Shown: in pieces, positions 8,605 through 53,358 of the stretch | Position numbering within the stretch: position 1 is the first letter of the stretch | Layout: every line of letters begins with the position of its first letter | NCBI GenBank assembly: GCA_005239895.1 | Contig: SBBB01000011.1 | Span: 24,957 to 88,956 of the forward strand | Direction: 5' to 3' | Source of the DNA: a bacterium | GTDB lineage: Bacteria; Patescibacteriota; Patescibacteriia; SBBB01 | DNA length: 64,000 nt | The notes under the pieces: model-generated | Seen by the model: the letters and a program-made list of their open reading frames with translations, nothing else | Databases searched by the model: none | Told to the model about the DNA's origin: nothing | Translations under genes and position numbers: made by a program

Positions 8605-10914
8605 TTAAGGGCTTGTAATTTTAAATTCATCAAACAAAATATTTACTTGGCCATAAGTATCAACAGCCAAACCAGCGTCTCCCGCATTAGTAATCGGACT
8701 AGATACATCTGTATAGGTAATACGAAGATCTTGTTCAGGTAATGGTATAGTAGTACCAAGATAAACCTTTAAAGTAACAGTCTCTGGAGGTCCAGCATTA
8801 GTTGTAGATGTTAATTTTAGCCAAACATAACTATTCAAATCTCCAGATATATTAGAAATAACAACTTCGTCTAATTTCTGACTAACACCATTTATTCTTT
8901 TATATAAAGATAATTTATCCGTAATAGCATTAAAAAACGCGTAATAACCATTTGAATCTAAGTTAGGAGCCAGGGTGTTTATGTCATCAATAACAAACTC
9001 GCAACCAATTCCCGTACTAGATACACATCCTGTACCAACAGCTTTAGTAATATACGCATATGATCCATCAATCGCTACACTCTTTCCATTCGTATCCAAA
9101 TCTTGTCCAGCTTTATATGTAACAGTAGTTGTGGGTGTTGTCACGTCAAAAACGCGCAATTCACAACCTGTTGATGTTGCATTGCTGCAAGTACCTGTGT
9201 TTGTATCACTAACCACATAAGCATAAACTACAGGATTAGAAGTCAAACCTTTGGCTACATATACTCCATTAGCATTAACACCTAAATCAAAACCATTTTT
9301 ATAAACTGAATTCGTTGCAGAAGAAACATCATGCACTAATAATTCACAACCCGTAGAAGTGGATGTGTCACAAGGTCCTGCAACCGCATTTCTAACTATG
9401 TAAGCATAATCACCATAAATATAAGCACCATTGCCAGGATCACTGGTTAAATTAATAGAACTATAAAATGGTCGCGGTATAGTGGTTGAACTGGCGTCAA
9501 ATATTGTAAATTCACAACCAACTGAAGTTGGGGAGGGTGTACAGTCTGCAGTACTAAATGGCCTAGATACATATATATAACTACATCCATAGGGAGCAAC
9601 TCCAGTAGCAGGACCACCCAAATCAACCCCACTATCAAATGAAAGCGTAGGCTTACTATTAACATCCATTCCTATTTTATAAATAATAAGTTCACAACCT
9701 GTGGGACCAGAACCACAGGTCGTGGTATTTTCATCTGTAGCCACATGAACATAATCACCTTCTATATAAATACCCTTGGCACTAGCGCCTAAGCTTTGAC
9801 CAGTAACAAAAGTTGGATTAGTAGAAGAAGCAATATCAAAAACACTCAACTCACATCCAGTCGAAGTTGTGGTATCGCAAGTACCAGTATTATTATCTTT
9901 CACTACAAAAGCATATTGACCTTTTATAAACACACCATTACCAGTGGTGTTTAAATCAAAACCACCTCTAGTTGCAACAGCTGGTGTTGAAGTTGGCGGC
10001 GTGTAATCAAATCTACGAGTCACAATACCCATATTAGTTGGCAAGATATTGTCATTATTATTTATAGCAACTTGAACTGAATAATTAGCTGATGTAGTTG
10101 CAACCTGCACAGCAGCTGGGGGAACATTTACAGTATTAAACCCTTCAGAAAAAACAAACTCTGCCGCACCTGGAGTTGTGGGAGTAGCAACACCCGGTAC
10201 AACTACTCCACTTGTACTTGCCACAGAAAATGTTCCTGATCTAGGAGTCACAAAACTGGTCGAAGGAGTAGCAGTATTGACCAAGGTAGAAGCTGCTGCT
10301 CTATTAAAAGTATCTGTGAATACTGGTGCTGGGGGTGGAGCCAAGGAACCACCTGAAACATTTTCTGCTTCTGTATCACAGGGTGCTGAAGTAATACCAT
10401 CTTGAGTGGCAAGATAACAACCAGCTTTATAAGTTCCAACTCCAGATTCAAGCGCAAATTTTATCCGATATTTATCCAATTCAGTTGTACCAGTAACTGG
10501 ATCAGTTTGGCTATACATATAACCACCCATTTTACCATTGGGTTGAGGATTTTTAGGAACAACTTCCATATAATGAACTCCATCATCCGTACCACCAGCA
10601 GCCACAAAACCACTGTCAGACAACACAACGCAATTAGTATTACCCAAACCTGACGCTGTGGTGGTAGTAGCATTACATACGCCTGTTGTATCAGCTGGAG
10701 CAGGTGGGTACTTCTGATTCGTATTAAAATATTGAGCTAAAGCAGCTTGAAATTGTTTAACATCTGCTAATCTTTTACTGTCCCTAGACACAGCGCGCAC
10801 CCTATTCACAGCAACCATACTTATACCAGCTAATATACCAACAATGGCTATTACTACTAATAATTCAATTAAAGTAAAACCTAATTGAAATTTAATATAT
10901 TTTTTAGTGCTCAT
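8605..10914 (-). CDS. giant type IV pilin-like protein (class III signal peptide) with repeated Cys-containing LVIVD-like beta-propeller modules
   Basis: The N-terminus MSTKKYIKFQLG/FTLIELLVVIAIVGILAGI is a textbook prepilin cleavage/methylation motif. The body has >=6 repeats of ...TGTCdTtTSTGCEL.VFDv.. resembling LVIVD repeats. Confidence 0.7.
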   Translation of the reverse strand: MSTKKYIKFQLGFTLIELLVVIAIVGILAGISMVAVNRVRAVSRDSKRLADVKQFQAALAQYFNTNQKYPPAPADTTGVCNATTTTASGLGNTNCVVLSDSGFVAAGGTDDGVHYMEVVPKNPQPNGKMGGYMYSQTDPVTGTTELDKYRIKFALESGVGTYKAGCYLATQDGITSAPCDTEAENVSGGSLAPPPAPVFTDTFNRAAASTLVNTATPSTSFVTPRSGTFSVASTSGVVVPGVATPTTPGAAEFVFSEGFNTVNVPPAAVQVATTSANYSVQVAINNNDNILPTNMGIVTRRFDYTPPTSTPAVATRGGFDLNTTGNGVFIKGQYAFVVKDNNTGTCDTTTSTGCELSVFDIASSTNPTFVTGQSLGASAKGIYIEGDYVHVATDENTTTCGSGPTGCELIIYKIGMDVNSKPTLSFDSGVDLGGPATGVAPYGCSYIYVSRPFSTADCTPSPTSVGCEFTIFDASSTTIPRPFYSSINLTSDPGNGAYIYGDYAYIVRNAVAGPCDTSTSTGCELLVHDVSSATNSVYKNGFDLGVNANGVYVAKGLTSNPVVYAYVVSDTNTGTCSNATSTGCELRVFDVTTPTTTVTYKAGQDLDTNGKSVAIDGSYAYITKAVGTGCVSSTGIGCEFVIDDINTLAPNLDSNGYYAFFNAITDKLSLYKRINGVSQKLDEVVISNISGDLNSYVWLKLTSTTNAGPPETVTLKVYLGTTIPLPEQDLRITYTDVSSPITNAGDAGLAVDTYGQVNILFDEFKITSP

Positions 10915-11121
10915 ATTTTAATAACGTAAAAATATAATTAAGGTATTATAAAAAATAAAAATTAATATTAGAAATATTATAACACAATTTTTTGAGTATA
11001 AACAGAAAAAAACTCTAGAAGATATCCACAGGAAGAAAGTTGAAAGTTTATCAAGTTATAAAGTTTAACCATCTCACTTTGTCATTCCCTACCATTAAAA
11101 GATCGCCTGAAAATAAATACA

Positions 11122-12516
11122 TTACTTTATCATCTCGCTAATTTTGTCACTAATGCGCCTCAAACGCGCTTGCGCTTTCTTGTCACCCTGCGCTTTTGCC
11201 TCCATTTCCATATCTACAAAAGTAAAAAGTAAGTCATCTAGCTGATTATCGTCCAGATCGCTTAGGTACGGTTTAATATCTTTATTAAAAGATGTATGTA
11301 AACTTTCATTTAATAAACAAGCTAAATACCTTTTTTCAAAGTCACTACCACAATACATAACAATTCGAACATCATCTTTTATTTTTCTAGTTATTTCTTT
11401 GTTCAATATTGAACCTCTAATACTAATAAATTCTCTAAAAAGAGAAACTACTCCATTTTTAAAAAGCTCAGGATAACCTTCTATGATCTGTTGTAAATCG
11501 AGGTCTTGAATCGCAGCTGATAAACGTAGGGTGGTAGATAAAACATCTCGCCACTTATTATGATCTTCAGAAATAAATGTAGCACAGAGCGTCCCTCTTT
11601 CGCCTCTATCTCTGATAATTCGAAAACCTAATTTTTCTAAAACTTCTGTTGAAAAATCCTGTCGATCTATTGCCCCCTGATAACCAGATTCAACATATCG
11701 AAACGATATAGTGTATTCGGGACGATCTTGATACATTTGAGCACTCATTTCAATATAATGTTTTCCAGTCGCAACTGTAAAATCAACAAAATCTTCTCCA
11801 ATAACTGAAATAATATCTCCTCTTTCTTTATTAAAAAAAATAGCATTTGAAAACACCCCTAATTTATTTAAAGTTTCATTAAAAATAATTTTACCAATTT
11901 CTGATTCCGACACTCCGTTTTTAGTAATATCTAATATCTTAATATGTGTATTTTTTTCTTCTGTAAAAAATAAAGAATTTTTTATATTCTCAACCTGAAA
12001 TTTAGATAGATTAACCGCTCGTGTTATAATTCCATGAAAAAACCTTACAGCTTCTTCTAAAGAATCAACTTCTTCCCATTTTAATAAGGGTGTCCCTTTG
12101 TCGTTTAAAATTTTTGAAAACTCATTATATGCTTCGCGACCTTTTTCTGAAAGATACGTTTTTCCATTTTCACTGACATCAACACTACCATCTCCATGTC
12201 TTAAAACATCGTTACTCCCATAACCAAAACGAGCAATCAATGAAATCTTTTCTGCATTCGTAGTAAACCTTGCAATTAAACCTTTAAGATCTATACTGCT
12301 TAACTCGGCACCAATTTTAAATCCACAAAAATTTGTAATGGCAAAAAACATGTCTTCGATTTTTTGTGTCACCCTTTTATAATCTTGCATAAATCGTCCA
12401 GCAGTCATTGAACTTGGTTCTGTGATGGCAAGTATCGCACGAGCCTGATCAGATAGTTTATTAAAATCAGAAAGTATTTCAAAATTTAAATCTTTGGCTC
12501 GACGAACACTTTCCAT
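11122..12516 (-). CDS. hypothetical protein (464 aa), no recognisable domain
   Basis: Long ORF in the same orientation as, and 40 nt downstream of, the 337-aa ORF. Soluble and acidic, with no motif I can assign. Confidence 0.5.
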   Translation of the reverse strand: MESVRRAKDLNFEILSDFNKLSDQARAILAITEPSSMTAGRFMQDYKRVTQKIEDMFFAITNFCGFKIGAELSSIDLKGLIARFTTNAEKISLIARFGYGSNDVLRHGDGSVDVSENGKTYLSEKGREAYNEFSKILNDKGTPLLKWEEVDSLEEAVRFFHGIITRAVNLSKFQVENIKNSLFFTEEKNTHIKILDITKNGVSESEIGKIIFNETLNKLGVFSNAIFFNKERGDIISVIGEDFVDFTVATGKHYIEMSAQMYQDRPEYTISFRYVESGYQGAIDRQDFSTEVLEKLGFRIIRDRGERGTLCATFISEDHNKWRDVLSTTLRLSAAIQDLDLQQIIEGYPELFKNGVVSLFREFISIRGSILNKEITRKIKDDVRIVMYCGSDFEKRYLACLLNESLHTSFNKDIKPYLSDLDDNQLDDLLFTFVDMEMEAKAQGDKKAQARLRRISDKISEMIK

Positions 12517-12556: not shown

Positions 12557-13570
12557 TTATAATTTAAAAAAATCTCCTAAAATAACTTTTTCTTTTTGAG
12601 AAAAGAATTGGTCTAAATTGCTACTTTCCATCTTAAGCATTTCTTCGTAATGATCTGGTATTTCAAAAGCATTAAGAAAAAATTGCATATTAGTAACACC
12701 AGCCCCAAACAACTTAACAGCCAATCTTACTTGTTCATCCTTTAAATATAAATCAAGATCTTTCACTGACTGACATAATCGTAAAATGGTTCTAAATTTT
12801 TCTCCTAAAACTCTATTATCCGAAAAATATAATTGAGTATTTACATCTTTCGTATTTTGATCAGCATAAACATAATTGCTTTCTAAATTACGATTTGTAA
12901 ATAAATATTTTAACCACGCACCTCGAACATATTCCATACGCGCTGTTAAATTTTGGGAACTTTCATAACCAGAGGCAGTGTGTTGATAATTCAATACATT
13001 GGGTATAATATTTGTATTTGGTGAAAGAAAAATGGATAAAGACTCTTTGTGATTCCCTGGATCCATTATAATAGTAAATATTTCTTTGGATACACTAACT
13101 ATGGCTTTAAATCGATTTGCTATGGGTGGACGAAATTTTTGAACCTCGTCTTTTAATATTGCAATTAATTCTCTAATTTTAAAATCTTTTTCTGTTAACT
13201 GTTTAGGATCATTTATCTGAATTTTCACAAATTTATTTTCCAACAATACATATCCTTCCTGGGTAAAAGGTTTGCCAACCTCTGGAGCGTCTTCAATAAC
13301 CCTACTTAAATCGTGGGTTTCTAAAAAATAAGAAATAGTTTTTGAAATTGCTAATTCAAAACTTGGGTCATTTTTTTCAACATTTATATTCAAAACATTA
13401 TTTGGTATTAACGGAATTTTTTTAAGCTCATTTATTAGATCGTGACGTTTAGATAAACCATCATTTTTTGATTGTAAGTAGTACTTCCAAACAGCTATAA
13501 TAAATAATTTTAAATTATTATTTTTATCTTCTTCTTTTTCAATATATGGCTCGTGCTCGTATTCAGGCAT
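12557..13570 (-). CDS. hypothetical protein (337 aa), no recognisable domain
   Basis: Long ORF 46 nt downstream of the ferredoxin gene and co-oriented with it. Confidence 0.5.
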   Translation of the reverse strand: MPEYEHEPYIEKEEDKNNNLKLFIIAVWKYYLQSKNDGLSKRHDLINELKKIPLIPNNVLNINVEKNDPSFELAISKTISYFLETHDLSRVIEDAPEVGKPFTQEGYVLLENKFVKIQINDPKQLTEKDFKIRELIAILKDEVQKFRPPIANRFKAIVSVSKEIFTIIMDPGNHKESLSIFLSPNTNIIPNVLNYQHTASGYESSQNLTARMEYVRGAWLKYLFTNRNLESNYVYADQNTKDVNTQLYFSDNRVLGEKFRTILRLCQSVKDLDLYLKDEQVRLAVKLFGAGVTNMQFFLNAFEIPDHYEEMLKMESSNLDQFFSQKEKVILGDFFKL

Positions 13571-25721: not shown

Positions 25722-28106
25722 TTAATTTTGAACAGATTTAGTATCTTGATCTTTTAACATTAATTCGATGATTTTTACTAGTTCCAAATCACTCAATTTA
25801 TTAATCTGAACATATTGATTAGAAAGAGTATAAAGATTATTATCAATATACAAACTCCTATTTATTTGAGTAGGTCTAGTATAATACATGTCTTGATTGA
25901 ACCCAGGATCTGATTTTATGTTCTTAGGTAAAGTATGAACAACCTTGCCCTTTAATTTAAATCCAGATGTGTCTACATTAAATACCATGGCTGAATATAT
26001 AGGGCTAATATCAGCTAGTTCCTCATTGCCACCAAATCTGGGTAAATTGTCAGCAATAAACCTCGTAAATGTCACGGGTATGACTAATAAATTCTTTGGT
26101 TTAGAAAATAAAAAGGCTTTATGATTATTTAGAGCTTCGGAAGATGTATAAGCATCTCCAATTTCATATTTATCTATTTCTTTCAAATTATTAACATCTC
26201 TCACATCAAATAATGATAATTTTAAAGCTGCATTCATAACTCCACCGTGCTCATTTTCCTTGGTCTCTCTTCCAAAACCTATAAGATAATTGTCATCGTA
26301 AGGATGTAAATAATTAGAGTAACCAGGAATTTTTAATTGACCTAGAACCGTTGGATTCTTAGGATCTTTAAGATCAATTGCAAACAATGGATCTACTTGT
26401 TTAAATGTAACCATATAAGCTCGGTTTTGCATAAATCTAACTGAATATATGCGCTCACCTTTAGCTAACCCCTCCACTTTTCCAACCACTTTTAAATTTT
26501 CATCTAAAACATACAAATTATTATAGGATTCTGTTGGTTTAGCGTCATCGTCAAAACGAGAAAATGACCAGCTTTGATTTTTAGTGGTGGCAATTCTAAA
26601 ATACCCCTTATCTTCATCCATTGAAAACTGATTTAAAACGTGACCCGTAACTTCTCCCACAGTCTGATATTTTAATTGCCCTTCTTTAATATTTATTTTA
26701 TGAATTATACTTTTTTCTAACTCTTTGGAAATATCAACATAAACAATCTTTGTCTTTTCTTTTATGGTTTCTTCAAGTTTGTCTTGTTCTTCCTTGGATA
26801 GTTCTTCAACATATTTTTCAATAATATTTTCAATTTTACTTAGTTTTTCTTCATTTGATAAAACAAGTTTATCAATACCTTCAATATAAATCACGCGTTC
26901 CCGATCTTTAGCTGGCAATAATGGATATACAACCTCTTTTAATATATTAAAAGTCAAATCATGTTCATTAAAATACTTGGTGTAAACAATATAAATATTA
27001 TTTTCAGAAACATACATATTCTGTCCACTATCCAACAAATAAACTTCATTCTTAACTGGATTAGTAATGTTTTTCAAGTCCAACATGGAAATACTCGTAA
27101 AATTATAACTACGGTAAGGTACATCAAAATAATATACATCTGGACAATTACACCTGGGACTGGTTTGGTCGTTGCTTAAAGTATTTCCATCTTCAATAAC
27201 CATAGGCAATACACGCTCATAATCTGAAATAGAATAAGTGTATTTATTAGTTATAAAATAAAGATGATCTTTAATCAAACGAGAATTAAAATAACTTCCT
27301 TCAAATTGAAAATCTTTAATTTTCTTAGGATTTTTACGATCCGTAATATCAAATACTTCTACAACTGTGTAATAATTGTTATTGTAATGATGTCGCCTAC
27401 TAGAAGGCTTAGAAATTGTAAAGGGTTGATAAGTATTGCCATATACTATTAACTTATTTCCACTGACATATAAACCCGATGCGGTTTTGTTTTTAAAATC
27501 TAAATTTGCCACTACTTCGGATTCTTGCGAAGGACGAGCTTTTAAAATCCACAGTTTATTATTAGCCAAAGTATAAATATAGTCACCATCGGTTTTAACC
27601 ACATCTGCTTCATCTACACCTGCTACTTGAATATTAGTTCTAGAATAATCATCGCCATCACTAGGCGGCGACCCAAGCCCAGTCTCCTCACCAGCTTCAA
27701 AACCCATTGGACCAACAGAATCAACACCTATACTCCTTGAACCCATACTATCTGATGACTTAAAACGAACTCTATCATATCTATACGAAGCCTGTTGGGA
27801 TAATTGATTATCTTTAAGATATTCAGTCAGTTCATTCAAATCTTTAAATTTTTTCATTTTCGACTGCTTGGCTAATTGCTGATTCAAAAATTGACTAGAT
27901 GTTTTGTTGCCATTCTTAAGAGCAACATACTTTTCGTCCGACATGCCTACCAACCTAGCGCTGGCTATAACAGCTACAATACCAACGATCAACAAACAAG
28001 CCATGGATATACTAAACAATATTTTATTTGTCGGTTGAACAGAGATTGTCCCGTCTTTGGAATTAAAATTCTTGTCTGAATGGTTAGATTGATTCATATA
28101 TTTCAT
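25722..28106 (-). CDS. membrane-anchored beta-propeller domain protein (PF09826-like)
   Basis: N-terminal TM helix. The C-terminal region IYSVRFMQNRAYMVTFKQVDPLFAIDLKDPKNPTVLGQLKIPGYSNYLHPYDDNYLIGFG matches the conserved core of the beta-propeller domain family, as I recall it. Confidence 0.65.
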   Translation of the reverse strand: MKYMNQSNHSDKNFNSKDGTISVQPTNKILFSISMACLLIVGIVAVIASARLVGMSDEKYVALKNGNKTSSQFLNQQLAKQSKMKKFKDLNELTEYLKDNQLSQQASYRYDRVRFKSSDSMGSRSIGVDSVGPMGFEAGEETGLGSPPSDGDDYSRTNIQVAGVDEADVVKTDGDYIYTLANNKLWILKARPSQESEVVANLDFKNKTASGLYVSGNKLIVYGNTYQPFTISKPSSRRHHYNNNYYTVVEVFDITDRKNPKKIKDFQFEGSYFNSRLIKDHLYFITNKYTYSISDYERVLPMVIEDGNTLSNDQTSPRCNCPDVYYFDVPYRSYNFTSISMLDLKNITNPVKNEVYLLDSGQNMYVSENNIYIVYTKYFNEHDLTFNILKEVVYPLLPAKDRERVIYIEGIDKLVLSNEEKLSKIENIIEKYVEELSKEEQDKLEETIKEKTKIVYVDISKELEKSIIHKINIKEGQLKYQTVGEVTGHVLNQFSMDEDKGYFRIATTKNQSWSFSRFDDDAKPTESYNNLYVLDENLKVVGKVEGLAKGERIYSVRFMQNRAYMVTFKQVDPLFAIDLKDPKNPTVLGQLKIPGYSNYLHPYDDNYLIGFGRETKENEHGGVMNAALKLSLFDVRDVNNLKEIDKYEIGDAYTSSEALNNHKAFLFSKPKNLLVIPVTFTRFIADNLPRFGGNEELADISPIYSAMVFNVDTSGFKLKGKVVHTLPKNIKSDPGFNQDMYYTRPTQINRSLYIDNNLYTLSNQYVQINKLSDLELVKIIELMLKDQDTKSVQN

Positions 28107-30718: not shown

Positions 30719-32203
30719 ATGATTCTAAATCTCATTTCCTTTAAACAACCCTATTTTAAAAATACAATCCTGTTTGTAGTACTTATAGAACTACTATCTC
30801 TTCTTGGTCATTTTATACCTGAACTAAACACTGTAGTTTTTGCGGTGATTATTTTATTAACTATAATTATTAGTTTAGAAAAACTAGAGTATGGAATCTA
30901 TATATTACTCGCTGAATTATTTATAGGATCAAAAGGTTATTTATTCTTTATTGAATATAATGGTGTAAATGTTTCTATAAGACTGGCTTTATTTTTAGTT
31001 ATTATCAGTATAGGTTTATTTCACTTTTGGAAAACTAAGCCTAGCATTCAACAATTAAAAGATAATTTAAAAACCCTATCTACTCTAAACAAAATCTATA
31101 TTTTGTTTGGAATCATACTGCTAGTTGGCGTTATCAATGCTATTCAAAATAATCACCCTTATAATAATATTTTCTTTGACAGTAATGGTTATTTATATTG
31201 GCTATTATACCCAATCATTCTTTTCGCATTAAAAAACAAAACACAAATTGAAAATGTATTACAAATCTTTTTTGCCACTCTCGTTACTATATCTACCAAA
31301 ACCTTAATTTTACTATTTTTATTTTCTCATAGCTCTCCTTATATTTTGCATCCTATTTATAGATGGATACGTATCACGGGCGTAGGTGAAATTGCAAACT
31401 TACAATCTGGTTTTTATAGAATATTTATGCAAAATCAAATTTATTTAATGCTCGGGTTTATAATTATATTATATCCATTATTAAAATTATTATTAAATAA
31501 AACCCCTAGGTCTGAAAATAAAAATATATGTGTTGGATTTTGGATGTTAATATTATTAGGAGCCAGTTTAATTACCAGCCTTTCGCGCAGCTTTTGGGTG
31601 GGCATATTACTAGCGCTTGTAGTTCTATTTGTGATTTTAGGTTTAAAATCTAAAAAAGAAGCTTGGCAGTCTTTATGTGTATGTATAGTTATAATATATA
31701 GTAGTATAGGCTTAATATTAACTATTATAAATTTTCCCTATCCAAGTAAAACTTATAACACCTATACCATAATTGATACTATTCAAGATCGAACCATTGA
31801 CACTAAAGAAGCAGCTGTAATGAGTAGGTGGAATCTATTACCAGTATTGTGGAATAAGGTTGTGGAAAAACCGGCCTTAGGTTTTGGTTTTGGATCTTTG
31901 GTAACTTATACAGCTACAGACCCACGAGTATTAGCTGTAAACCCAACAGGCGAATACACTACTTATTCTTTTGAATGGGGGTATTTAGATATTATGCTTA
32001 AAATTGGCAGTATAGGTTTAATTATTTATCTTATTTTTATGTTTTATATTGCTAAACCATTGTGGAGTTTTACATCTTTAAATTTTTTGTTAAGCTTGAT
32101 AGCATTATTAACAACGCATATATTTAGCCCTTACCTTAATCATCCTCTAGGCATAGGTTACTTAATAATGTTAATATTGATAGGCAAACACTTTGAAACT
32201 TAA
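30719..32203 (+). CDS. polytopic membrane protein, O-antigen ligase/Wzy-like
   Basis: 494 aa with ~12 TM segments and one large external loop. Family assignment is tentative. Confidence 0.5.
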   Translation: MILNLISFKQPYFKNTILFVVLIELLSLLGHFIPELNTVVFAVIILLTIIISLEKLEYGIYILLAELFIGSKGYLFFIEYNGVNVSIRLALFLVIISIGLFHFWKTKPSIQQLKDNLKTLSTLNKIYILFGIILLVGVINAIQNNHPYNNIFFDSNGYLYWLLYPIILFALKNKTQIENVLQIFFATLVTISTKTLILLFLFSHSSPYILHPIYRWIRITGVGEIANLQSGFYRIFMQNQIYLMLGFIIILYPLLKLLLNKTPRSENKNICVGFWMLILLGASLITSLSRSFWVGILLALVVLFVILGLKSKKEAWQSLCVCIVIIYSSIGLILTIINFPYPSKTYNTYTIIDTIQDRTIDTKEAAVMSRWNLLPVLWNKVVEKPALGFGFGSLVTYTATDPRVLAVNPTGEYTTYSFEWGYLDIMLKIGSIGLIIYLIFMFYIAKPLWSFTSLNFLLSLIALLTTHIFSPYLNHPLGIGYLIMLILIGKHFET

Positions 32204-37614: not shown

Positions 37615-38865
37615 ATGAAACAAGCATTAAGTTATCCACAAAGCTATTATAACCTTATGACAAACTTATTGATTACCTTGGAATTTCCACCTCAGACGGG
37701 TGGAGTCGCCAACTATTATTATCATATTGTCCAAGAACTGTCAAGAAATTGTAAAATAATCACCCTTACCACCCCAAACCAACCTTTTATTACCGAAGAC
37801 AACCTAACAACCTCAATAGTCTTACGCAGACCATTACTTTTCACTAAATTTTGGCCCAAGTGGCTATTAACTCTATACCAAACCTTTAAAATCATCAAAT
37901 CATATAAAATTAAACTAATTATTATTGGTCATATCTTACCCTTGGGATATGTTTCTTTAATATTTAAAACAATATTTAATATTCCTTATATCGTATGCGT
38001 TCACGGTTTGGATATACTAGCTCCTCAAAAATCTAAATGGCAGACTTTCTGGTTAAAAAAAATACTAAAACAAGCTCATTGTATTACAAGTAATAGTAAT
38101 TTTGTTAAATTAGAGGTTATCAAATTAAATATTCCAGCCGATAAAATTATAGTATTATATCCAGGTTCAAATATTTTAAAAAATCATAATCAAAGACCTG
38201 ATAATGCAAATGCAAATGCAAATGCTAATGCTAATTTACAAACAACTCAAAATATATCTCCGGAAATAAAATACCGAACTAAACATAATTTGACTGAAAA
38301 CGATATAATATTATTAAGCGTTGGACGCCTTGTGGATCGCAAGGGTTTTGATATAGTAATTAAATCATTGCCGACTGTCTGGAAAGAACGCCAAAATGTA
38401 AAATATATTCTTTTCGGAGATGGTCCTGAAAAATCTAAATTACAAAATCTAGCCCAACAAATAATGTCTCAATCTGGTAAACCGCATCATATTATTTTTC
38501 CCGATTCACTTTCGGATCTAGATAAAGAATATTATTATAAATTAAGTGACATTTTTATTATGACACCTAAAGAACTTAAATACGATTGCGAAGGTTTTGG
38601 TATAGTATATTTAGAAGCTAGTCAATCTGAGCTACCATTAATTGGATCTAATTCCGGCGGCGTACCAGAAGTTGTCCTAAATAATATTAATGGATTGCTT
38701 ATAAAACCAGATGATATTAATGAAACTGCTGCGGCTATTATTAAGCTCGCGCAAAATCAGACTTTACGTAAAACATTGGGTCAAAAGGGAAAACAAAATG
38801 CTCTGGAAAAATTTCAATGGACCCAAGAAGTTTCCAAACTTTTGAATGTAATTCAAAACACTTAG
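37615..38865 (+). CDS. GT4-family glycosyltransferase
   Basis: C-terminal EX7E-type GT4 motif (EGFGIVYLEA...LIGSNSGG). It contains an internal (Asn-Ala)5 microsatellite insertion at 38205-38236. Confidence 0.85.
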   Translation: MKQALSYPQSYYNLMTNLLITLEFPPQTGGVANYYYHIVQELSRNCKIITLTTPNQPFITEDNLTTSIVLRRPLLFTKFWPKWLLTLYQTFKIIKSYKIKLIIIGHILPLGYVSLIFKTIFNIPYIVCVHGLDILAPQKSKWQTFWLKKILKQAHCITSNSNFVKLEVIKLNIPADKIIVLYPGSNILKNHNQRPDNANANANANANLQTTQNISPEIKYRTKHNLTENDIILLSVGRLVDRKGFDIVIKSLPTVWKERQNVKYILFGDGPEKSKLQNLAQQIMSQSGKPHHIIFPDSLSDLDKEYYYKLSDIFIMTPKELKYDCEGFGIVYLEASQSELPLIGSNSGGVPEVVLNNINGLLIKPDDINETAAAIIKLAQNQTLRKTLGQKGKQNALEKFQWTQEVSKLLNVIQNT

Positions 38866-38871
38866 TCCTAC

Positions 38872-38896
38872 TTAGTCGCCTTGCCACTAAGTAACT
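38872..38896. repeat. hairpin CTTAGT-CGCCTTGCC-ACTAAG; an inverted copy lies at 57697-57719
   Basis: The two loci share 23 nt (CTTAGTCGCCTTGCCACTAAGTA). Confidence 0.6.
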
Positions 38897-38897
38897 G

Positions 38898-39323
38898 CTA
38901 CAGCTTTTTATCAGCTAAACCTAGTTTTAATTTTGTAGATGTATATTTTGATAATTTATAGGGTGGAATGATATGAATTTTTAGAGATAATTTTTTACAA
39001 ACATCGTGCGCTAGAAAATCATTTCTTAACGCCATTTGATCGTACCCAAAACAAACCACATCTGGTTTATACTTTTCAATAATTTTATAACTACTTAACC
39101 CTTTGTCTCCCAAAACAACCAAATCAACCATTTTTAAACAACTAACAATTTTTGATCTTTCTTTTTCAGAAAACACAGTTAATTTCTTGTTTAATTTTAC
39201 TAAATTGTGGTCCCGAGCTATAACCACCATTAAATAATCTCCATATTTTTTAGCGCGATTTAAAAAATAAACATGACCAGGATGCAAAAGATCAAAAGTT
39301 CCAAAAACTAGTACTTTACGCAT
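38898..39323 (-). CDS. cytidylyl/adenylyltransferase-like nucleotidyltransferase (TagD/HldE-domain-II-like)
   Basis: N-terminal GTFDLLHPGH (HxGH) motif of the CTP-transferase-like family. 141 aa. Confidence 0.7.
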   Translation of the reverse strand: MRKVLVFGTFDLLHPGHVYFLNRAKKYGDYLMVVIARDHNLVKLNKKLTVFSEKERSKIVSCLKMVDLVVLGDKGLSSYKIIEKYKPDVVCFGYDQMALRNDFLAHDVCKKLSLKIHIIPPYKLSKYTSTKLKLGLADKKL

Positions 39324-39333
39324 AATTTAATAT

Positions 39334-40392
39334 TTACCACCAAATAATTTTTTTAACCAACTTGAAATACGCCTCAAAAAAAGGATTAGCAATATATTTT
39401 AAAATAGGATTATTAATATCTTGAAACAAAATACTACCAGTCATATAAGATAAAATATGTTTGTCTGACACCACGCGTATACTATTCACAAACTGCCTAC
39501 GTTTTTTAAGATATAACCAAGATTGGGCTTTTAAAAAAAATAAATAAGCTTTGAGTTTGTGAGTCCAAAAACCAGATTTAATAGAAAATAAAGAAGTTCC
39601 AAATTCCATAAATAAAAACGCTGGTAATAATAAAAATATAGTCTTTAATTTATAATTAGTAAAAAATACTATTAATCTATTGCGCTCCATCCAATAATAT
39701 TTTTTTATACTACGCATAAATTCATACTTATGATAAACAATAGATTTGGGTGTTAAAACTACTTTATATCCAGCTAATCTTAATTTCCAACTAAAATCTA
39801 AATCTTCATGATATAGAAAAAAAATATTGTCAAATAATCCAACCTGCTCTATCGCGCTCATGCGATACAAGACTGATGCTCCACTAGCATACCCTACGTC
39901 TGATTGTAATTGTGGCATCTCAAATAGTGTTTTTAAATATCCACTACTATACCCAAACCCTAAATAATGCAAGGCACAACCACAAGAATTAATTTTTTCT
40001 TTATCGGGCCACATCATCACCAAAGACTGACAAGCTCCAATATTTGGATCAGAATCTGCTGCTTCCACTAAGTACGTAACATAATCAGGCTCAACTATAG
40101 TATCTTGATTTAATAATATTAAATAATCAACGCCTAGCTCTCTAGCCTGTTTCCACCCTAAATTAACTCCACCGCTAAACCCTAAATTAGTTTTGGATTC
40201 TATAAGTTCATGAGACAAACTGTGCTGTTTAATTAAATCTACAGAACTATCAATCGAAGCATTATCAATAATAATAATCTGACATAAATGTTTAGGATAA
40301 GTAAGTTTTTCCAAACTATCCAAACAATCTGGTAAATATTTTTCACCATTAAAACTTAAAATAATAATTGCAACTTTTGATTTGTATACCAT
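39334..40392 (-). CDS. GT2-family glycosyltransferase
   Basis: N-terminal GT-A fold motifs (IIIDNASIDSS, DxD-like region). Confidence 0.8.
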   Translation of the reverse strand: MVYKSKVAIIILSFNGEKYLPDCLDSLEKLTYPKHLCQIIIIDNASIDSSVDLIKQHSLSHELIESKTNLGFSGGVNLGWKQARELGVDYLILLNQDTIVEPDYVTYLVEAADSDPNIGACQSLVMMWPDKEKINSCGCALHYLGFGYSSGYLKTLFEMPQLQSDVGYASGASVLYRMSAIEQVGLFDNIFFLYHEDLDFSWKLRLAGYKVVLTPKSIVYHKYEFMRSIKKYYWMERNRLIVFFTNYKLKTIFLLLPAFLFMEFGTSLFSIKSGFWTHKLKAYLFFLKAQSWLYLKKRRQFVNSIRVVSDKHILSYMTGSILFQDINNPILKYIANPFFEAYFKLVKKIIWW

Positions 40393-40399
40393 AAGCTAA

Positions 40400-40750
40400 C
40401 TACTTTTGATCATGATTATCAAAATGTTTTTCTGCGTCTTTTAGACTTAAATGTCTAGTAATAATAGTAATATTTTTATCTAATTCTTTTAAACGAATAA
40501 AAATATTAAACAACGTGTAAAAAATTAAAATAAATGCCGCGTACATTACCAAATCTGCCCCTCTTCCAATTCCAACTATATGAGCTATATAAGTAGTGCT
40601 GTGAGGATAAGCAACTACAACTACAAATATTAAATAAAAAATAATCCAAACCCCAAAACTAAATTGAGAGATTTGCTTGCGTTTAAATTTATCCCAAGCC
40701 TTGCCTAGCATGAACACAGCTATCAATAATAAAATAATTTGAATATACAT
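40400..40750 (-). CDS. small membrane protein, DUF2304-like (often paired with GT2 genes)
   Basis: 116 aa with 3 TM segments, between two GT2 genes. Confidence 0.45.
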   Translation of the reverse strand: MYIQIILLLIAVFMLGKAWDKFKRKQISQFSFGVWIIFYLIFVVVVAYPHSTTYIAHIVGIGRGADLVMYAAFILIFYTLFNIFIRLKELDKNITIITRHLSLKDAEKHFDNHDQK

Positions 40751-40761
40751 AATTTAAAAAT

Positions 40762-41541
40762 TTAATGACGATTACAATATTTATTATATATTTTTTCCCA
40801 TACTAAATTCCAAACAATACGATAAGCATTAAAAATGCTCTGACCCTTAGACTTAGAATATTTTGTATATCTAACTGTGACCGGCACTTCTTTAAATACT
40901 AAATTATTAGACTGAATTTTATCTAAAATTTCCGAAGCATGGGCCATGCCATCTTGATCAATTTTAATTTTTAAACTAGCTTGTCTAGTCAAAGCTCTTA
41001 AACCACAGTGCGAATCAGTTACCGAAATTCCCGAAAAAATACGCGTAAATAACACTCCGCCTTTTAAAACTAAAAACTTAGTAATATTTATATTAATGGC
41101 TTGTCCTAAAAATCGCGAACCCAAAACCACGTCACATTCTTTATTAAACAAAGGTAATAATAATATTTTTAGATCTTCACTGTCATGTTGACCATCCCCG
41201 TCCATATGTACAATAATATCAGCTCCCCTAGCTAAACTATAATTAATACCTGTAACCAGAGCTGCTCCTTGTCCCCGATTTACACAATGTCGCAATACCA
41301 TAGCTCCAGCCCCTTGCGCTTTAAACCCAGTTTGATCAACAGAACCGTCATCCACGACTACAATTTTAAATTGTAAATCTAAAAACTGCTTCCGGTCTAA
41401 TTTCATCAAAGACTTAGTAAGGTTTTGAACTACATCTTTGATTGTTGTTTGTTCATTAAAAGCTGGAATAACAACGCACACAAACATATACAAATTAAAT
41501 CTTGGAATGAAATAACGAACGAACTCCTTTAATATAATCAA
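40762..41541 (-). CDS. GT2-family glycosyltransferase (polyprenyl-phosphate sugar transferase-like)
   Basis: VVIPAFNE...VVVDDGSVDQT...DGDGQHD motifs. Confidence 0.8.
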   Translation of the reverse strand: MIILKEFVRYFIPRFNLYMFVCVVIPAFNEQTTIKDVVQNLTKSLMKLDRKQFLDLQFKIVVVDDGSVDQTGFKAQGAGAMVLRHCVNRGQGAALVTGINYSLARGADIIVHMDGDGQHDSEDLKILLLPLFNKECDVVLGSRFLGQAININITKFLVLKGGVLFTRIFSGISVTDSHCGLRALTRQASLKIKIDQDGMAHASEILDKIQSNNLVFKEVPVTVRYTKYSKSKGQSIFNAYRIVWNLVWEKIYNKYCNRH

Positions 41542-42520
41542 TTGTTTTTTTCAAACCTTGATTTAATAAAACAACTGGAAACCAGCCCAATAACTCAGTT
41601 GCCAGAGCAATATTAGGTATTTCTTGATCATGATAAGTTGCGGTTTGCTGATCATTAATAATAATCTCAGATTTTGAATTTGTTAAAGCCACTATTTTAT
41701 CTACGATATCTTTTATAGAATATTCCAAAGAATGTCCTAAATTAACTGGGTGGTTTATAGATGACCCCATTAAACGCAGCAATCCGTCCACCAAATCATC
41801 AACATAACAATAACTCCCTAAAATTTTAGAACTCGTACTACGAATATGAATAGGTTTATTTTCTAATGCTAATAGCACTGTATCGGAAAGAAATTTTCCG
41901 TCTTTTAATTTCATACGCGAGCCATAAGTATTAAAAACCCTAGCAATTTTAACATCTAAATTATGCTTTAAGTGATAAGAATTAACGAGAGTCTCACCAA
42001 AACGCTTGCTTTCAGCGTATAGATTATCAGGAGCCAAATGATCAAAAACTCCTAAAACATTTTCTTTAAATTCAACACCCTGAGTTCCAGGTCCATATAC
42101 CATACCCGATGAAACATATAAAAATTTAGCTTGATACTTAACAGCTAAATCTAAAGCATTCTTGGTACCATAAACATTGGCTAACAAAGTTTCTAAGGGA
42201 TACTTCTGACGATCTAAAGGACTAGATGGAGAAGCTAAATGATACACTTCTTGAATTCCTTGCCATTGAATTTTAAATTTTTCTAATTCCATAATTTGCT
42301 CTAAATCACAGGGCTCAATAATATCATGTTTTATAAATTCAAAATCCGAATGATTTAATAAATGATTAATATTATCTTCAAAACTAGTTAAAAAATTATC
42401 TATACATATAACCTTACTATCATTTAAAAGCCGATCGCATAAATTAGAACCAATAAAACCAGCCCCGCCAAAAACAACTACGCTCTTTTTATCAAAAATT
42501 TCTTTCATACTTTTTAGCAA
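41495..42520 (-). CDS. NAD-dependent epimerase/dehydratase (UDP-glucuronate decarboxylase-like)
   Basis: Rossmann GGAGFIGS, a catalytic YxxxK (YAESK) and the SSGMVYG motif. Its 3' end overlaps the next gene by 47 nt. Confidence 0.85.
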   Translation of the reverse strand: MLKSMKEIFDKKSVVVFGGAGFIGSNLCDRLLNDSKVICIDNFLTSFEDNINHLLNHSDFEFIKHDIIEPCDLEQIMELEKFKIQWQGIQEVYHLASPSSPLDRQKYPLETLLANVYGTKNALDLAVKYQAKFLYVSSGMVYGPGTQGVEFKENVLGVFDHLAPDNLYAESKRFGETLVNSYHLKHNLDVKIARVFNTYGSRMKLKDGKFLSDTVLLALENKPIHIRSTSSKILGSYCYVDDLVDGLLRLMGSSINHPVNLGHSLEYSIKDIVDKIVALTNSKSEIIINDQQTATYHDQEIPNIALATELLGWFPVVLLNQGLKKTIDYIKGVRSLFHSKI

Positions 42521-42536
42521 ATTATTAAAATTAATT

Positions 42537-44261
42537 CTATTTATAAGCTATAGCCCTTACGATATTCCAACCATACTCACTATTAGGGGTCTTTTTAAAT
42601 ACCTTACGAAACACTGTAACCGCTTGCGCTTCTTTGTTTAATGATCTAGTTGCAGGCTTCAATCCATAAACAATACGATCTACAGCTAACCAATCAGATT
42701 TACTATTTGGTGTTCGTTTAAAAACTATTTTAAAATCATTGATTCCTTTTTGCTCAGCTCGTAGGTTTCTCTGCAATGGTTTTAATCCTATTTGAATGTA
42801 AGTGTAATCTCGCCAATCTTCAAAACTATTGGGCAGACGACCATAAATTCTACCAAACTCAGCCAGAGTTTGCTTATCAACTCTAAATTTTACACTTCCA
42901 CTAGCCTTGGGTGATGTAACGGATGAATTATTTGGCAGTAGTGTAGGAGGAACTATATTAATATTGTTATTGGTAACATGAAATGAAACCTCACCCGAAA
43001 CTATAGAAGCCAGATTAAGAGCTGTATAAAGATTAATTTTACCACTTCCTAATTTATTAATAAAACCGGGATTTTTAGCATCAATGCTATCAGTAGTGTT
43101 TATAATAATTTCAGTTATTTGTTTAGCGCTTAAACCTGGTCTAAAACTTTTAATCAAAGCTGCTTCTCCTGAAACCACACCCGTGGCAATAGATGTTCCA
43201 CTCCAAAAACCACCCTGATATTCTTCATATCCGTGTTGAGGGCTATACACCTGCAAGCCGAAAAAACTTGATCCTGGAGCGCTAACATCAACGCATCTTT
43301 GACCAAAATTAAAAGACACTGGTTTTTGATCTAACGCGTCCAAACCTGTAACCCCCACAATCCTATTTACAGATTCACCAACATCATAACAAATAGGATA
43401 CAAAAGAACTTCGTCTAAATTTAAAAAATATTCTTTAGATTTATTACCAGCCGCAGCGACTAAAACGACATTATTATTATAAGCGTTTTTAATACTTGTA
43501 AAAATAGTATTACTATAACCTACTCCCACAAAACTCATATTAATAATGTGTGCACCATTCGCAACAGCATAATCAATAGCGCGAGCGACTGCTAGGGTAT
43601 CTCCATTGCCTTCATTATTTAAAACCCTAAGAGGCATAATTTTACTTTTCCAAGCTACACCCGTAACACCTTGTTTATTATTTCCTTCAGCTGCCACAAC
43701 GCCAGCTACAGTGGTGCCATGATTAATTCCCGTGGATGTATGCTTATCATCAAATACCGGATGAACATTATTAGTATTAGATACAAAATCCCAGCCATAA
43801 ATATCGTCAATATACCCATTCTTATCATTATCAATATTATCATTAGGAATTTCTCGAGTATTAATCCAGGTATTGTTTACTAAATCTAAGTTATTAATGT
43901 CAACCCCCGAATCCAACACCGCCACTACAACTCCACTGCCATTTGAAATATTCCAAGCCTCGGGAGCTTTAATTTCTGGTAAATACCACTGCTTATCATA
44001 ATAAGGATCTTGGGGCTCAAAAGAAGAATAATAAAGATAATTTGGTTCTGCAATCTCCACCTGCTGATTTAGCTTGTAATCTGTCGAAATATTATGAACA
44101 TCTACACCCTGATTAAATTTAAACTTATAAAGTTCTTGATAGTTTTTAAATTTTACTACCAACTGATTATCCCTAGAAGAAGCTAACTGTTGCTTATTAA
44201 TTTTTAAAAAATTGTAAGACAATAATCCTAAAAAAATAAAAATTATTAACCGCAACTTCAT
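42537..44261 (-). CDS. subtilisin-like serine protease (S8) with two C-terminal ~45-aa tandem repeats
   Basis: Catalytic-triad contexts VAVLDSGVD, HGTTVAGV and GTSIATGVVSG, plus an N-terminal signal/TM. The C-terminus carries 2x ...FK.FK+TPNS..W.....Y. Confidence 0.9.
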   Translation of the reverse strand: MKLRLIIFIFLGLLSYNFLKINKQQLASSRDNQLVVKFKNYQELYKFKFNQGVDVHNISTDYKLNQQVEIAEPNYLYYSSFEPQDPYYDKQWYLPEIKAPEAWNISNGSGVVVAVLDSGVDINNLDLVNNTWINTREIPNDNIDNDKNGYIDDIYGWDFVSNTNNVHPVFDDKHTSTGINHGTTVAGVVAAEGNNKQGVTGVAWKSKIMPLRVLNNEGNGDTLAVARAIDYAVANGAHIINMSFVGVGYSNTIFTSIKNAYNNNVVLVAAAGNKSKEYFLNLDEVLLYPICYDVGESVNRIVGVTGLDALDQKPVSFNFGQRCVDVSAPGSSFFGLQVYSPQHGYEEYQGGFWSGTSIATGVVSGEAALIKSFRPGLSAKQITEIIINTTDSIDAKNPGFINKLGSGKINLYTALNLASIVSGEVSFHVTNNNINIVPPTLLPNNSSVTSPKASGSVKFRVDKQTLAEFGRIYGRLPNSFEDWRDYTYIQIGLKPLQRNLRAEQKGINDFKIVFKRTPNSKSDWLAVDRIVYGLKPATRSLNKEAQAVTVFRKVFKKTPNSEYGWNIVRAIAYK

Positions 44262-53269: not shown

Positions 53270-53276
53270 AATTGTG

Positions 53277-53352
53277 CGCAGCGAATGGGATTCGAACCCA
53301 CGATCTCCTCCGTGACAGGGAGGCGCTTTAAACCGGGCTAAGCTACCGCTGC
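53277..53352 (-). tRNA. tRNA-Asp (anticodon GTC)
   Basis: Hand-folded cloverleaf: acceptor GCAGCGG/TCGCTGC, D-arm GCTT..AAGC, anticodon arm CCTCC-CTGTCAC-GGAGG, T-arm GTGGG-TTCGAAT-CCCAT, discriminator G. CCA is not encoded. Confidence 0.85.
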
Positions 53353-53358
53353 AATAAA

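What the first reader, a model, noticed from the sequence alone, without database searches (positions are those of the whole stretch)
8605..10914. 769-aa type IV pilin with Cys-bracketed LVIVD-like propeller repeats
The N-terminus is a canonical prepilin leader and hydrophobic helix (QLG/FTLIELLVVIAIVGILAGI). Instead of a ~130-aa globular head, the protein continues for ~700 aa with at least six ~45-aa modules of the form ...G-T-C-x(6-8)-G-C-E-[LF]-x-[VI]-[FYH]-D... separated by Thr-rich segments. The modules resemble LVIVD beta-propeller repeats with a disulfide-capable Cys pair in each blade. A propeller-headed major or minor pilin would be an adhesin-like tip, which fits surface attachment in an episymbiotic lifestyle.
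Basis: partly seen in the sequence, partly recalled or inferred. Interest (0 to 1): 0.6.

Follow-up and report, generated by a model that had tools for sequence, protein, structure and literature searches.

The report
Type IV pilin carrying a six-bladed propeller
This gene from an ultrasmall (Patescibacteria) bacterium encodes a pilus subunit with a six-bladed, probably disulfide-stapled beta-propeller attached, most likely a sticky module shown on the pilus; the design is real but already catalogued and has an experimental precedent.

Summary
ORF 8605-10914 (-) encodes 769 aa with a canonical prepilin leader (Pfam N_methyl 28.5 bits, cutoff 21.2; G-1/F+1/E+5). Residues 1-182 are a complete pilin module that aligns end to end with stand-alone 150-190-aa pilins.

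Six repeats (period 54-61 aa, not ~45) each carry a C-x6-8-C-E loop. An alignment-based AlphaFold2 model of residues 305-660 (pLDDT 82, pTM 0.85) has 24 strands, and every top PDB fold match is a beta-propeller.

The protein itself does not hit Pfam LVIVD. However, 18 of 22 aligned relatives do, so it is a divergent, Cys-stapled LVIVD subfamily; 92 of 152 retrieved proteins carry at least 3 such units.

Relatives with a prepilin-like leader plus these repeats lie inside type IV filament operons. The window holds no pilus machinery.

EF-G places the organism near Ca. Falkowbacteria. Pilin-LVIVD fusions (about 30 proteins, one from Falkowbacteria) are already listed by Raynaud et al. 2021. A propeller-bearing minor pilin, PilX2 of TM7x, is needed for full host binding.

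Verdict: new member of a known kind. The adhesin role is inferred. Residues 183-314 and 657-769 remain orphan.

The parts
10976..10984 (-). Possible extended -10 promoter element TGTTATAAT, 61 nt upstream of the ATG. A second TATAAT lies at 10950-10945.
   Evidence: Read from the sequence. The consensus scan did not call it because there is no -35 match. The genome is AT-rich, so this is weak evidence. rpsL downstream has its own 11/12 promoter-like site at 8539-8511, which suggests the pilin gene is its own transcription unit.
10879..10914 (-). Prepilin leader peptide, residues 1-12 (MSTKKYIKFQLG), ending in Gly(-1).
   Evidence: N_methyl PF07963 28.5 bits (cutoff 21.2) and TIGR02532 29.7 bits (cutoff 16.3). 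Residue 13 aligns with residue 1 of mature pilins in solved structures such as Neisseria PilE, Geobacter PilA-N and GspG.
10369..10878 (-). Complete pilin module, residues 13-182. It comprises the Phe1...Glu5 hydrophobic alpha-1 helix plus a globular head with Cys80/Cys95 and Cys166/Cys179.
   Evidence: 36-51% identity over residues 45-180 to many 150-190-aa stand-alone pilins. It aligns end to end with them, and they stop where this module stops. The nearest NCBIfam models are GspG and PilA major-type pilins, all below equivalog cutoffs.
9973..10368 (-). Thr/Val/Ala/Pro-rich segment, residues 183-314. It is either a spacer or the N-terminal half of an unrecognised domain.
   Evidence: Composition T 16%, V 13%, A 12%, P 11%. 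No Pfam or PDB match. Database alignments over this stretch are low-confidence compositional matches.
8947..9972 (-). Six-bladed beta-propeller, residues 315-656. It is made of six 54-61-aa Cys-stapled LVIVD-type repeats at 315-372, 368-424, 426-485, 483-541, 538-601 and 599-656.
   Evidence: Repeat alignment and HMM. AlphaFold2 on alignment A1: pLDDT 82.2, pTM 0.85, 24 strands. All top Foldseek PDB hits are propellers, best E=2e-7. 18 of 22 aligned relatives hit PF08309. The Cys pairs are conserved.
8608..8946 (-). C-terminal orphan segment, residues 657-769, beta-rich by eye and ending ...AGLAVDTYGQVNILFDEFKITSP.
   Evidence: No homolog among 1.84 billion representatives; the furthest match reaches residue 683. 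No Pfam, PDB or hhalign match.
8605..8607 (-). Stop codon.

Best explanation
The gene encodes a modular type IV pilin of a Patescibacteria (CPR) bacterium. Shown: a 12-residue class III leader with Gly-1/Phe+1/Glu+5. Shown: a full-size pilin module (residues 13-182) homologous to stand-alone pilins. Shown: after a ~130-aa Thr/Pro-rich segment, a six-bladed beta-propeller built from a divergent LVIVD repeat. In each blade the loop between the second and third strand is lengthened to 14-16 residues and bracketed by a conserved Cys pair. Inferred: a prepilin peptidase cleaves after Gly12, and the alpha-1 helix inserts the protein into a type IV filament assembled by a PilB/PilC/PilM machinery encoded elsewhere in the genome. 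Inferred: because the 590-aa extension is too bulky for regular packing, the subunit is probably rare or tip-located. Inferred: the six Cys pairs form extracytoplasmic disulfides that stiffen six loops which, by the pseudo-sixfold symmetry, all project from one face of the propeller and form the ligand-binding surface. Inferred: the filament thereby presents the propeller as an adhesin toward a host cell or other surface, as proposed for modular pilins and for PilX2 of Nanosynbacter lyticus.
For: - Pilin identity.
- Propeller: six repeats; a confident model with 24 strands; only propellers among the top PDB fold matches.
- LVIVD relationship: 8 of 8 and 18 of 22 relatives hit PF08309 above the cutoff.
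- Cys pairs: conserved in 23 sequences. Stapled units are widespread: 92 of 152 retrieved proteins have at least 3, with loop lengths peaking at 7 and 9 residues.
- Link to pili: P0039 (L083) and P0107 (L084, L085) have a prepilin-like leader plus the same repeats. They lie between T2SSE/T2SSF genes and PilM_2 plus an N_methyl pilin, flanked by small ORFs with pilin-type N-termini. P0148 lies directly after T2SSF and an N_methyl gene.
- Lineage: EF-G is closest to Ca. Falkowbacteria and other Patescibacteria.
- Literature: IPR012902-IPR013211(xn) architectures are listed for about 30 proteins, including a Ca. Falkowbacteria pilin (PMC8179133). IPR013211 is the LVIVD repeat (PMC10210494). Deleting PilX2, a minor pilin with a 7-bladed propeller, lowers TM7x host binding from 10.6% to 4.6% of hosts (PMC12206443).
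Against: - No prepilin peptidase, PilB/C/M/T or other pilin is present in the 64-kb window. The gene sits alone between orphan ORFs and the rpsL-rpsG-fusA operon, and has no syntenic counterpart in the nearest genomes.
- The protein itself does not hit PF08309.
- The operon-embedded relatives carry different, minor-type pilin modules, whereas this one is major-type. All of these NCBIfam hits are sub-threshold, so context evidence transfers only for the propeller, not for the carrier.
- No model coordinates were available, so disulfide geometry, ring closure and the face carrying the loops were not measured.
- No ligand is known for any LVIVD protein.
- About 240 residues (183-314 and 657-769) are unexplained.
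Confidence: 0.65

Rival explanations
1. The class III signal and pilin module serve only as a membrane anchor or short pseudopilus stalk, as in a T2SS/Com-type pseudopilus or an archaeal-bindosome-like arrangement. The propeller would then be displayed at the cell surface rather than on a long pilus.
For: The best NCBIfam similarity is to the GspG pseudopilin, and weakly to ComGC. No pilus genes are nearby. The long Thr/Pro-rich spacer could act as a cell-envelope-spanning stalk. Class III signals on non-pilus surface proteins are established knowledge for archaea.
Against: The whole globular pilin head is retained and is 36-51% identical to stand-alone pilins, which would be unnecessary for a mere anchor. 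Relatives with the propeller lie in operons with PilM_2 and a major-type pilin.
Confidence: 0.17
2. The protein co-polymerises along the filament shaft rather than at the tip. The major-type pilin module packs like the major pilin, and the ~130-aa flexible spacer lets the propeller hang off the side, giving a multivalent, decorated pilus.
For: The pilin module resembles major-type pilins end to end. There is a long low-complexity spacer. Raynaud et al. note that a location in the filament body cannot be excluded if the linker is flexible enough (PMC8179133).
Against: There is no direct evidence. The spacer may instead be part of a folded domain. A 590-aa appendage on many subunits would be costly. 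Characterised modular pilins are low-abundance (PMC8179133).
Confidence: 0.1
3. The propeller is an enzyme (hydrolase or lactonase-like) delivered by the pilus, not an adhesin.
For: The top fold matches include six-bladed enzymes: Sphingobium phosphotriesterase 5hrm, SMP-30/gluconolactonase-like 2p4o and paraoxonase 1v04. Modular pilins with peptidase modules exist (PMC8179133).
Against: Sequence identity to those enzymes is 10-12% and TM-scores are about 0.5, i.e. generic propeller similarity. There is no Pfam hit to any enzyme family. LVIVD proteins are annotated as cell-surface repeats (PMC2447325).
Confidence: 0.06
4. The ORF is an assembly or gene-fusion artefact, or a decaying gene.
For: It is a singleton at 90% identity with no full-length homolog. 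It is absent from the nearest genomes.
Against: The identical protein is recorded from NCBI and from Logan assemblies, and its Logan contig occurs in 2 samples. The 769-codon frame is intact. Each module is well formed and the Cys pairs are conserved.
Confidence: 0.02

Closest known systems
Modular type IV pilins with the IPR012902 (N_methyl) - IPR013211 (LVIVD) xN architecture, catalogued by Raynaud et al. 2021 (PMC8179133, Dataset S1), including an 860-aa Ca. Falkowbacteria protein
   Same: A prepilin leader and pilin module followed by tandem LVIVD-type repeats. The lineage is the same broad one (Patescibacteria, Falkowbacteria-like by EF-G). The architecture is listed for about 30 proteins.
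   Different: Those proteins were found because InterPro recognises their repeats; this one escapes PF08309. Its repeats are 54-61 aa with a Cys-bracketed loop, against the 42-aa canonical unit. None of the catalogued proteins has been characterised. I did not compare sequences with them directly.
PilX2 of Nanosynbacter lyticus TM7x (Saccharibacteria), PMC12206443
   Same: A Patescibacteria pilin-like protein with a C-terminal beta-propeller. It is proposed as the adhesin of a host-binding type IV pilus, and its deletion halves host binding.
   Different: PilX2 has a 7-bladed RCC1-repeat propeller, lacks a predicted PilD signal and lies in a T4P locus. The window protein has a 6-bladed LVIVD-type propeller, a canonical G/F..E leader and a major-type pilin module, and lies away from any T4P gene. 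No RCC1 Pfam hit.
Streptococcus sanguinis modular minor pilins PilB (vWA module) and PilC (ConA-like lectin module), PMC8179133 and PMC9934059
   Same: The design principle is the same: a carrier pilin module plus a grafted binding module presented by the filament.
   Different: The grafted folds differ (vWA and lectin, against a propeller). Those have short linkers, whereas here ~130 aa precede and ~110 aa follow the propeller. Those are experimentally shown adhesins; this one is not.
PilY1/PilC tip adhesins of diderm T4aP (IPR008707 propeller)
   Same: A beta-propeller displayed at a type IV pilus for adhesion.
   Different: PilY1 is not a pilin; it docks on a minor-pilin complex. Its propeller is 7-bladed and modified. 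No Neisseria_PilC/PilY1 Pfam hit here. The window protein carries its own pilin module.
Giant multi-propeller surface proteins with the same Cys-stapled LVIVD unit (P0005-P0030, 1,500-5,200 aa)
   Same: The repeat subfamily is the same: 32-47% identity over 270-330 aa, up to 28 stapled units per protein, and the conserved C-x7/9-C-E motif.
   Different: None of these carries the pilin-leader motif at its N-terminus. They are far larger and probably contain several propellers in tandem.

Membership tests
Type IV pilin / class III signal peptide proteins (PF07963, TIGR02532) | N-terminal methylation/cleavage motif scoring above the curated cutoff | tested here: met
   PF07963 28.5 bits against 21.2. 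TIGR02532 29.7 bits against 16.3.
Type IV pilin / class III signal peptide proteins (PF07963, TIGR02532) | Short basic leader ending in Gly(-1), Phe(+1), Glu(+5), followed by ~20 hydrophobic residues | tested here: met
   MSTKKYIKFQLG|FTLIELLVVIAIVGILAGISMVAV. Residue 13 aligns with residue 1 of mature pilins of solved filaments.
Type IV pilin / class III signal peptide proteins (PF07963, TIGR02532) | Globular pilin head homologous to other pilins | tested here: met
   Residues 45-180 are 36-51% identical to 150-190-aa pilins, with an end-to-end alignment.
Type IV pilin / class III signal peptide proteins (PF07963, TIGR02532) | Cognate prepilin peptidase and PilB/PilC assembly machinery in the same genome | not testable with these tools
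   None in the 64-kb window. The rest of the genome could not be retrieved.
Type IV pilin / class III signal peptide proteins (PF07963, TIGR02532) | Processing, N-methylation and incorporation into a filament | not testable with these tools
   This needs experiments.
LVIVD repeat (PF08309 / IPR013211) | Direct match to PF08309 at or above the 20.2-bit gathering score | tested here: not met
   No hit at E<=10 for the whole protein. None at E<=0.01 for residues 305-660.
LVIVD repeat (PF08309 / IPR013211) | Significant homology to proteins that do match PF08309 | tested here: met
   45 proteins at E<=1e-30. 8 of 8 relatives tested and 18 of 22 aligned segments hit PF08309, best E=1.5e-36.
LVIVD repeat (PF08309 / IPR013211) | 42-residue repeat unit (Adindla et al. 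2004, PMC2447325) | tested here: not met
   The period is 54-61 aa. The excess lies in the Cys-bracketed loop.
Beta-propeller fold | Four-stranded blades arranged in a closed ring | tested here: met
   24 strands in six groups, pLDDT 82.2, pTM 0.85. All 50 listed Foldseek PDB hits appear to be propellers, TM 0.5-0.6 to six-bladed ones. Ring closure was not measured because no coordinates were available.
Modular pilins (sensu Raynaud et al. 2021) | N-terminal pilin module plus at least one additional module not specific to T4P biology | tested here: met
   Pilin module 1-182 plus propeller 315-656. The pilin-LVIVD architecture is listed in Dataset S1.
PilY1/PilC adhesins (IPR008707) | PilY1-type C-terminal propeller domain and no pilin module | tested here: not met
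   No such Pfam hit. The protein has its own pilin module.
RCC1-propeller minor pilin (PilX2-like) | RCC1 repeats forming seven blades | tested here: not met
   No RCC1 Pfam hit. There are six LVIVD-type units.
Laminin_G_3 / ConA-like jelly roll split by the propeller (as in relative P0022) | The flanks of the propeller, spliced together, match PF13385 | tested here: not met
   The window flanks give no Pfam, PDB, phmmer or hhalign match. For P0022 the spliced flanks match PF13385 over positions 1-150 of 151 at 81.8 bits.

The most novel reading that the evidence does not exclude
The Cys-stapled LVIVD propeller may be a portable binding cassette that has been grafted independently onto non-homologous carriers. 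Three carriers are seen: a major-type pilin module (this protein); minor-type pilin modules inside T4F operons (P0039, P0107, P0148); and a loop of a LamG lectin domain (P0022, shown). In the window protein the two orphan flanks (183-314 and 657-769) could likewise be the two halves of one jelly-roll domain split by the propeller. The pilus head would then be a composite lectin-propeller. The major-type carrier and long spacer could also let it decorate the filament shaft rather than only the tip.
Probability: 0.15. Interest if true: 0.55.

Novelty: new member of a known kind. Interest (0 to 1): 0.35.

Why it matters
How Patescibacteria recognise and hold on to their hosts is largely unknown, and type IV pili are the best-supported candidates. 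This protein adds a well-defined candidate adhesin from a Falkowbacteria-like lineage, where nothing is cultivated. It has a canonical pilin carrier fused to a confidently modelled six-bladed propeller. Its six conserved, probably disulfide-stapled loops mark an obvious binding face to mutate or to use as bait. It also shows that the Pfam LVIVD model misses a large Cys-stapled subfamily, so catalogues of modular pilins based on InterPro undercount this architecture. It does not reveal a new principle: pilin-LVIVD fusions are already listed, and a propeller-bearing minor pilin has been tied to host binding in TM7x.

Tried and rejected
- **Word-index homolog searches.** The full protein, residues 305-769 and the profile A1 returned almost nothing useful. 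They were swamped by the pilin helix and Thr-rich words. The exhaustive search was needed.
- **Single-sequence AlphaFold2 of the full protein.** pLDDT 37.9, unusable.
- **PDB sequence search with the propeller profile.** Only a spurious Caf1 match at E=0.02.
- **The search for related loci.** The leaderless protein found no relative in 185,579 species genomes.
- **Exact-sequence look-ups for organism names.** No names returned.
- **Synteny in the nearest genomes (L002, L003, L018).** rpsL-rpsG-fusA is conserved, but there is no pilin and no counterpart of the two upstream orphan ORFs.
- **Split LamG/jelly-roll idea for the window protein's flanks.** No support from Pfam, PDB, BLASTP, phmmer or hhalign. 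It is kept only as a speculative reading.
- **Apparent homology over residues 99-300 with P0033, P0010 and P0028.** Rejected as low-confidence compositional alignment.
- **Relationship to the window's other propeller protein (PF09826, 25722-28106).** None detectable.
- **PilY1 or RCC1 membership.** No hits.
- **Context of P0019 and P0053.** Uninformative.
Full report
**Observation**

The minus-strand ORF 8605..10914 encodes 769 aa. The identical protein is recorded from NCBI and from Logan assemblies, and its Logan contig occurs in two samples, so it is not an assembly accident.

The N-terminus is MSTKKYIKFQLG|FTLIELLVVIAIVGILAGI. Pfam N_methyl scores 28.5 bits against a cutoff of 21.2. TIGR02532 scores 29.7 bits against 16.3. 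Residue 13 aligns with residue 1 of mature pilins from solved filaments: Neisseria PilE, Geobacter PilA-N, Thermus PilA and GspG. This fits cleavage after Gly12 and Glu at +5.

The protein has 17 Cys. Twelve of them form six C-x6-8-C pairs, each followed by E-[LF]-x-[VI]-x-[DK], at 346/354, 400/407, 458/467, 515/523, 576/584 and 630/638. A repeat HMM finds exactly six units, spanning 315-656.

**Anatomy**

- **Residues 1-182** are a complete pilin module. They are 36-51% identical to many stand-alone 150-190-aa pilins. The alignment runs end to end, and those pilins terminate where this module ends. The closest NCBIfam models are the major types GspG and PilA, all below equivalog cutoffs.
- **Residues 183-314** are Thr/Val/Ala/Pro-rich and match nothing. 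Apparent alignments to giant proteins in this stretch are compositional.
- **Residues 315-656** are the repeat domain.
- **Residues 657-769** have no homolog among 1.84 billion representatives and no Pfam or PDB match.

**The repeat domain is a propeller of a divergent LVIVD subfamily**

Word-index searches failed. The exhaustive search with the leaderless protein found 273 proteins at E<=1e-3 and 45 at E<=1e-30. Most are 500-5,200-aa proteins that match residues ~305-655 several times over.

The window protein does not hit PF08309. In contrast, 8 of 8 relatives tested and 18 of 22 aligned segments do, with a best E of 1.5e-36; 11 also touch PF09826.

Most of the Cys pairs are invariant or nearly so in the 23-sequence alignment A1. 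Of the 152 retrieved proteins, 92 carry at least three stapled units, up to 28. The loop between the two Cys is most often 7 or 9 residues long.

AlphaFold2 on A1 gave pLDDT 82.2 and pTM 0.85, with 24 strands in six groups of four. All top Foldseek matches in the PDB are beta-propellers. The six-bladed ones (SMP-30-like 2p4o, paraoxonase, designed SAKe6) score best per target length.

Mapping onto one search puts each Cys pair in the 14-16-residue loop between the second and third strand of a unit. That loop is short in the canonical 42-aa LVIVD repeat (PMC2447325). By symmetry all six loops lie on one face.

The strand order suggests that the first strand (315-319) completes the last blade, a velcro closure. 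This is an inference, because no coordinates were available.

**Link to pili**

The window contains no other pilin motif and no pilus machinery. The gene lies between two orphan ORFs and rpsL-rpsG-fusA. The nearest genomes keep that operon but have no counterpart of the pilin.

Relatives are more informative:

- P0039 (1,650 aa) and P0107 (957 aa) have a prepilin-like leader (Ala at -1) plus the same repeats. They lie in the gene order T2SSE - T2SSF - small pilin-like ORF - LVIVD pilin - two small ORFs - PilM_2 - N_methyl pilin. The small neighbours have pilin-type N-termini.
- P0148 follows T2SSF and an N_methyl gene.
- Their pilin modules are of minor type (weak ComGE, GspI and PilV hits) and are not homologous to the window's. 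The propeller has therefore been joined to different carriers.

**Lineage**

EF-G is closest to Ca. Falkowbacteria (71%) and a Patescibacteria MAG (68%).

**What is already known**

Raynaud et al. 2021 defined modular pilins and listed 1,219 of them. About 30 have the IPR012902-IPR013211(xN) architecture, and the text singles out an 860-residue Ca. Falkowbacteria protein with 12 such repeats (PMC8179133). IPR013211 is the LVIVD repeat (PMC10210494).

In Nanosynbacter lyticus TM7x, the minor pilin PilX2 has a seven-bladed RCC1 propeller. Its deletion lowers host binding from 10.6% to 4.6% of hosts (PMC12206443). Both the architecture and the proposed role therefore have precedents.

**Mechanism**

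*Shown:*
- a canonical class III signal;
- a complete pilin module;
- a six-bladed propeller with conserved Cys pairs;
- relatives inside T4F operons.

*Inferred:*
- PilD cleavage and assembly into a type IV filament through the alpha-1 helix;
- low copy number or tip position, because of the 590-aa appendage;
- disulfide-stapled loops forming the binding face;
- adhesion to a host or other surface.

*Rivals:*
- a membrane-anchored or pseudopilus display;
- shaft decoration through the major-type module and long spacer;
- an enzymatic propeller;
- an artefact.

**A side result**

In relative P0022 the Laminin_G_3 hit after the propeller covers only profile positions 42-150. With the propeller spliced out, the hit spans positions 1-150 at 81.8 bits. 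The spliced sequence also aligns with contiguous LamG domains elsewhere. In P0022 the propeller is therefore nested inside a lectin-type jelly roll.

The window protein's flanks read similarly by eye, but every test was negative. That reading stays speculative.

**Verdict**

This is a real, well-formed modular type IV pilin with a six-bladed, Cys-stapled LVIVD-type propeller. It is a new member of a catalogued architecture, with an experimental analogue in Saccharibacteria. It is of moderate interest as a candidate adhesin of an uncultivated lineage, and as evidence that current LVIVD models miss a large subfamily.

Noticed in passing
window 25722-28106 (-): A second propeller protein: 794 aa with a strong PF09826 Beta_propel hit (530.7 bits) and an N-terminal hydrophobic anchor. 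It is not detectably related to the pilin's propeller profile.
   Followed up: partly
window 11122-12516 (-) and 12557-13570 (-): Two ORFs (464 and 337 aa) immediately upstream of the pilin gene. They have no Pfam hit, are singleton clusters, and are absent from the nearest Patescibacteria genomes. Together with the pilin gene they look like a lineage-specific insertion between the ATP synthase genes and the str operon.
   Followed up: partly
L082 296-2650 (protein P0022): In this 784-aa relative with a weak prepilin leader, the propeller of about 390 aa is nested inside a Laminin_G_3 jelly roll. Splicing the propeller out restores a full-length PF13385 match (positions 1-150 of 151, 81.8 bits).
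   Followed up: yes
L083 6633-17385; L084 6647-15274; L085 2084-10711: A conserved type IV filament operon with a giant LVIVD minor pilin sits next to T4SS-like genes (TrwB_AAD_bind and T4SS_pilin hits) and a response regulator.
   Followed up: partly
L008 422 and 8231; L009 2753 and 4203: Other Patescibacteria-like MAGs (some labelled 'uncultured Gammaproteobacteria') carry 340-460-aa pilin-leader genes directly beside fusA. Their pilin heads resemble the window's (29-33% identity over residues 12-180).
   Followed up: partly
proteins P0089, P0097, P0103, P0126, P0132: A domain like the window's pilin head (residues 45-175) occurs at internal or C-terminal positions of ~670-740-aa proteins, for example residues 611-716 of the 717-aa P0089. 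These may be multi-pilin-domain proteins or fused gene calls.
   Followed up: no
window 55374-57032 (-): SecD carries a PPIC-type peptidyl-prolyl isomerase (rotamase) domain at residues ~154-256, between its P1 N-terminal and P1 head subdomains. SecF follows at 54464-55366.
   Followed up: no
window 37615-41541 and 52472-54402: There are several GT2/GT4 glycosyltransferases, an NAD-dependent epimerase/dehydratase (41495-42520), a Wzy_C O-antigen-ligase-like protein (30719-32203) and a 574-aa subtilase (42537-44261). These are possible glycosylation or processing functions for Thr-rich surface proteins, but no link to the pilin was tested.
   Followed up: no
window 1-64000: Nearly all long ORFs are on the minus strand, and GC skew is negative in every 2-kb bin (cumulative -5.75). 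This is consistent with one replichore. Only one Rfam hit was found, a tRNA at 53277-53352 (-).
   Followed up: no
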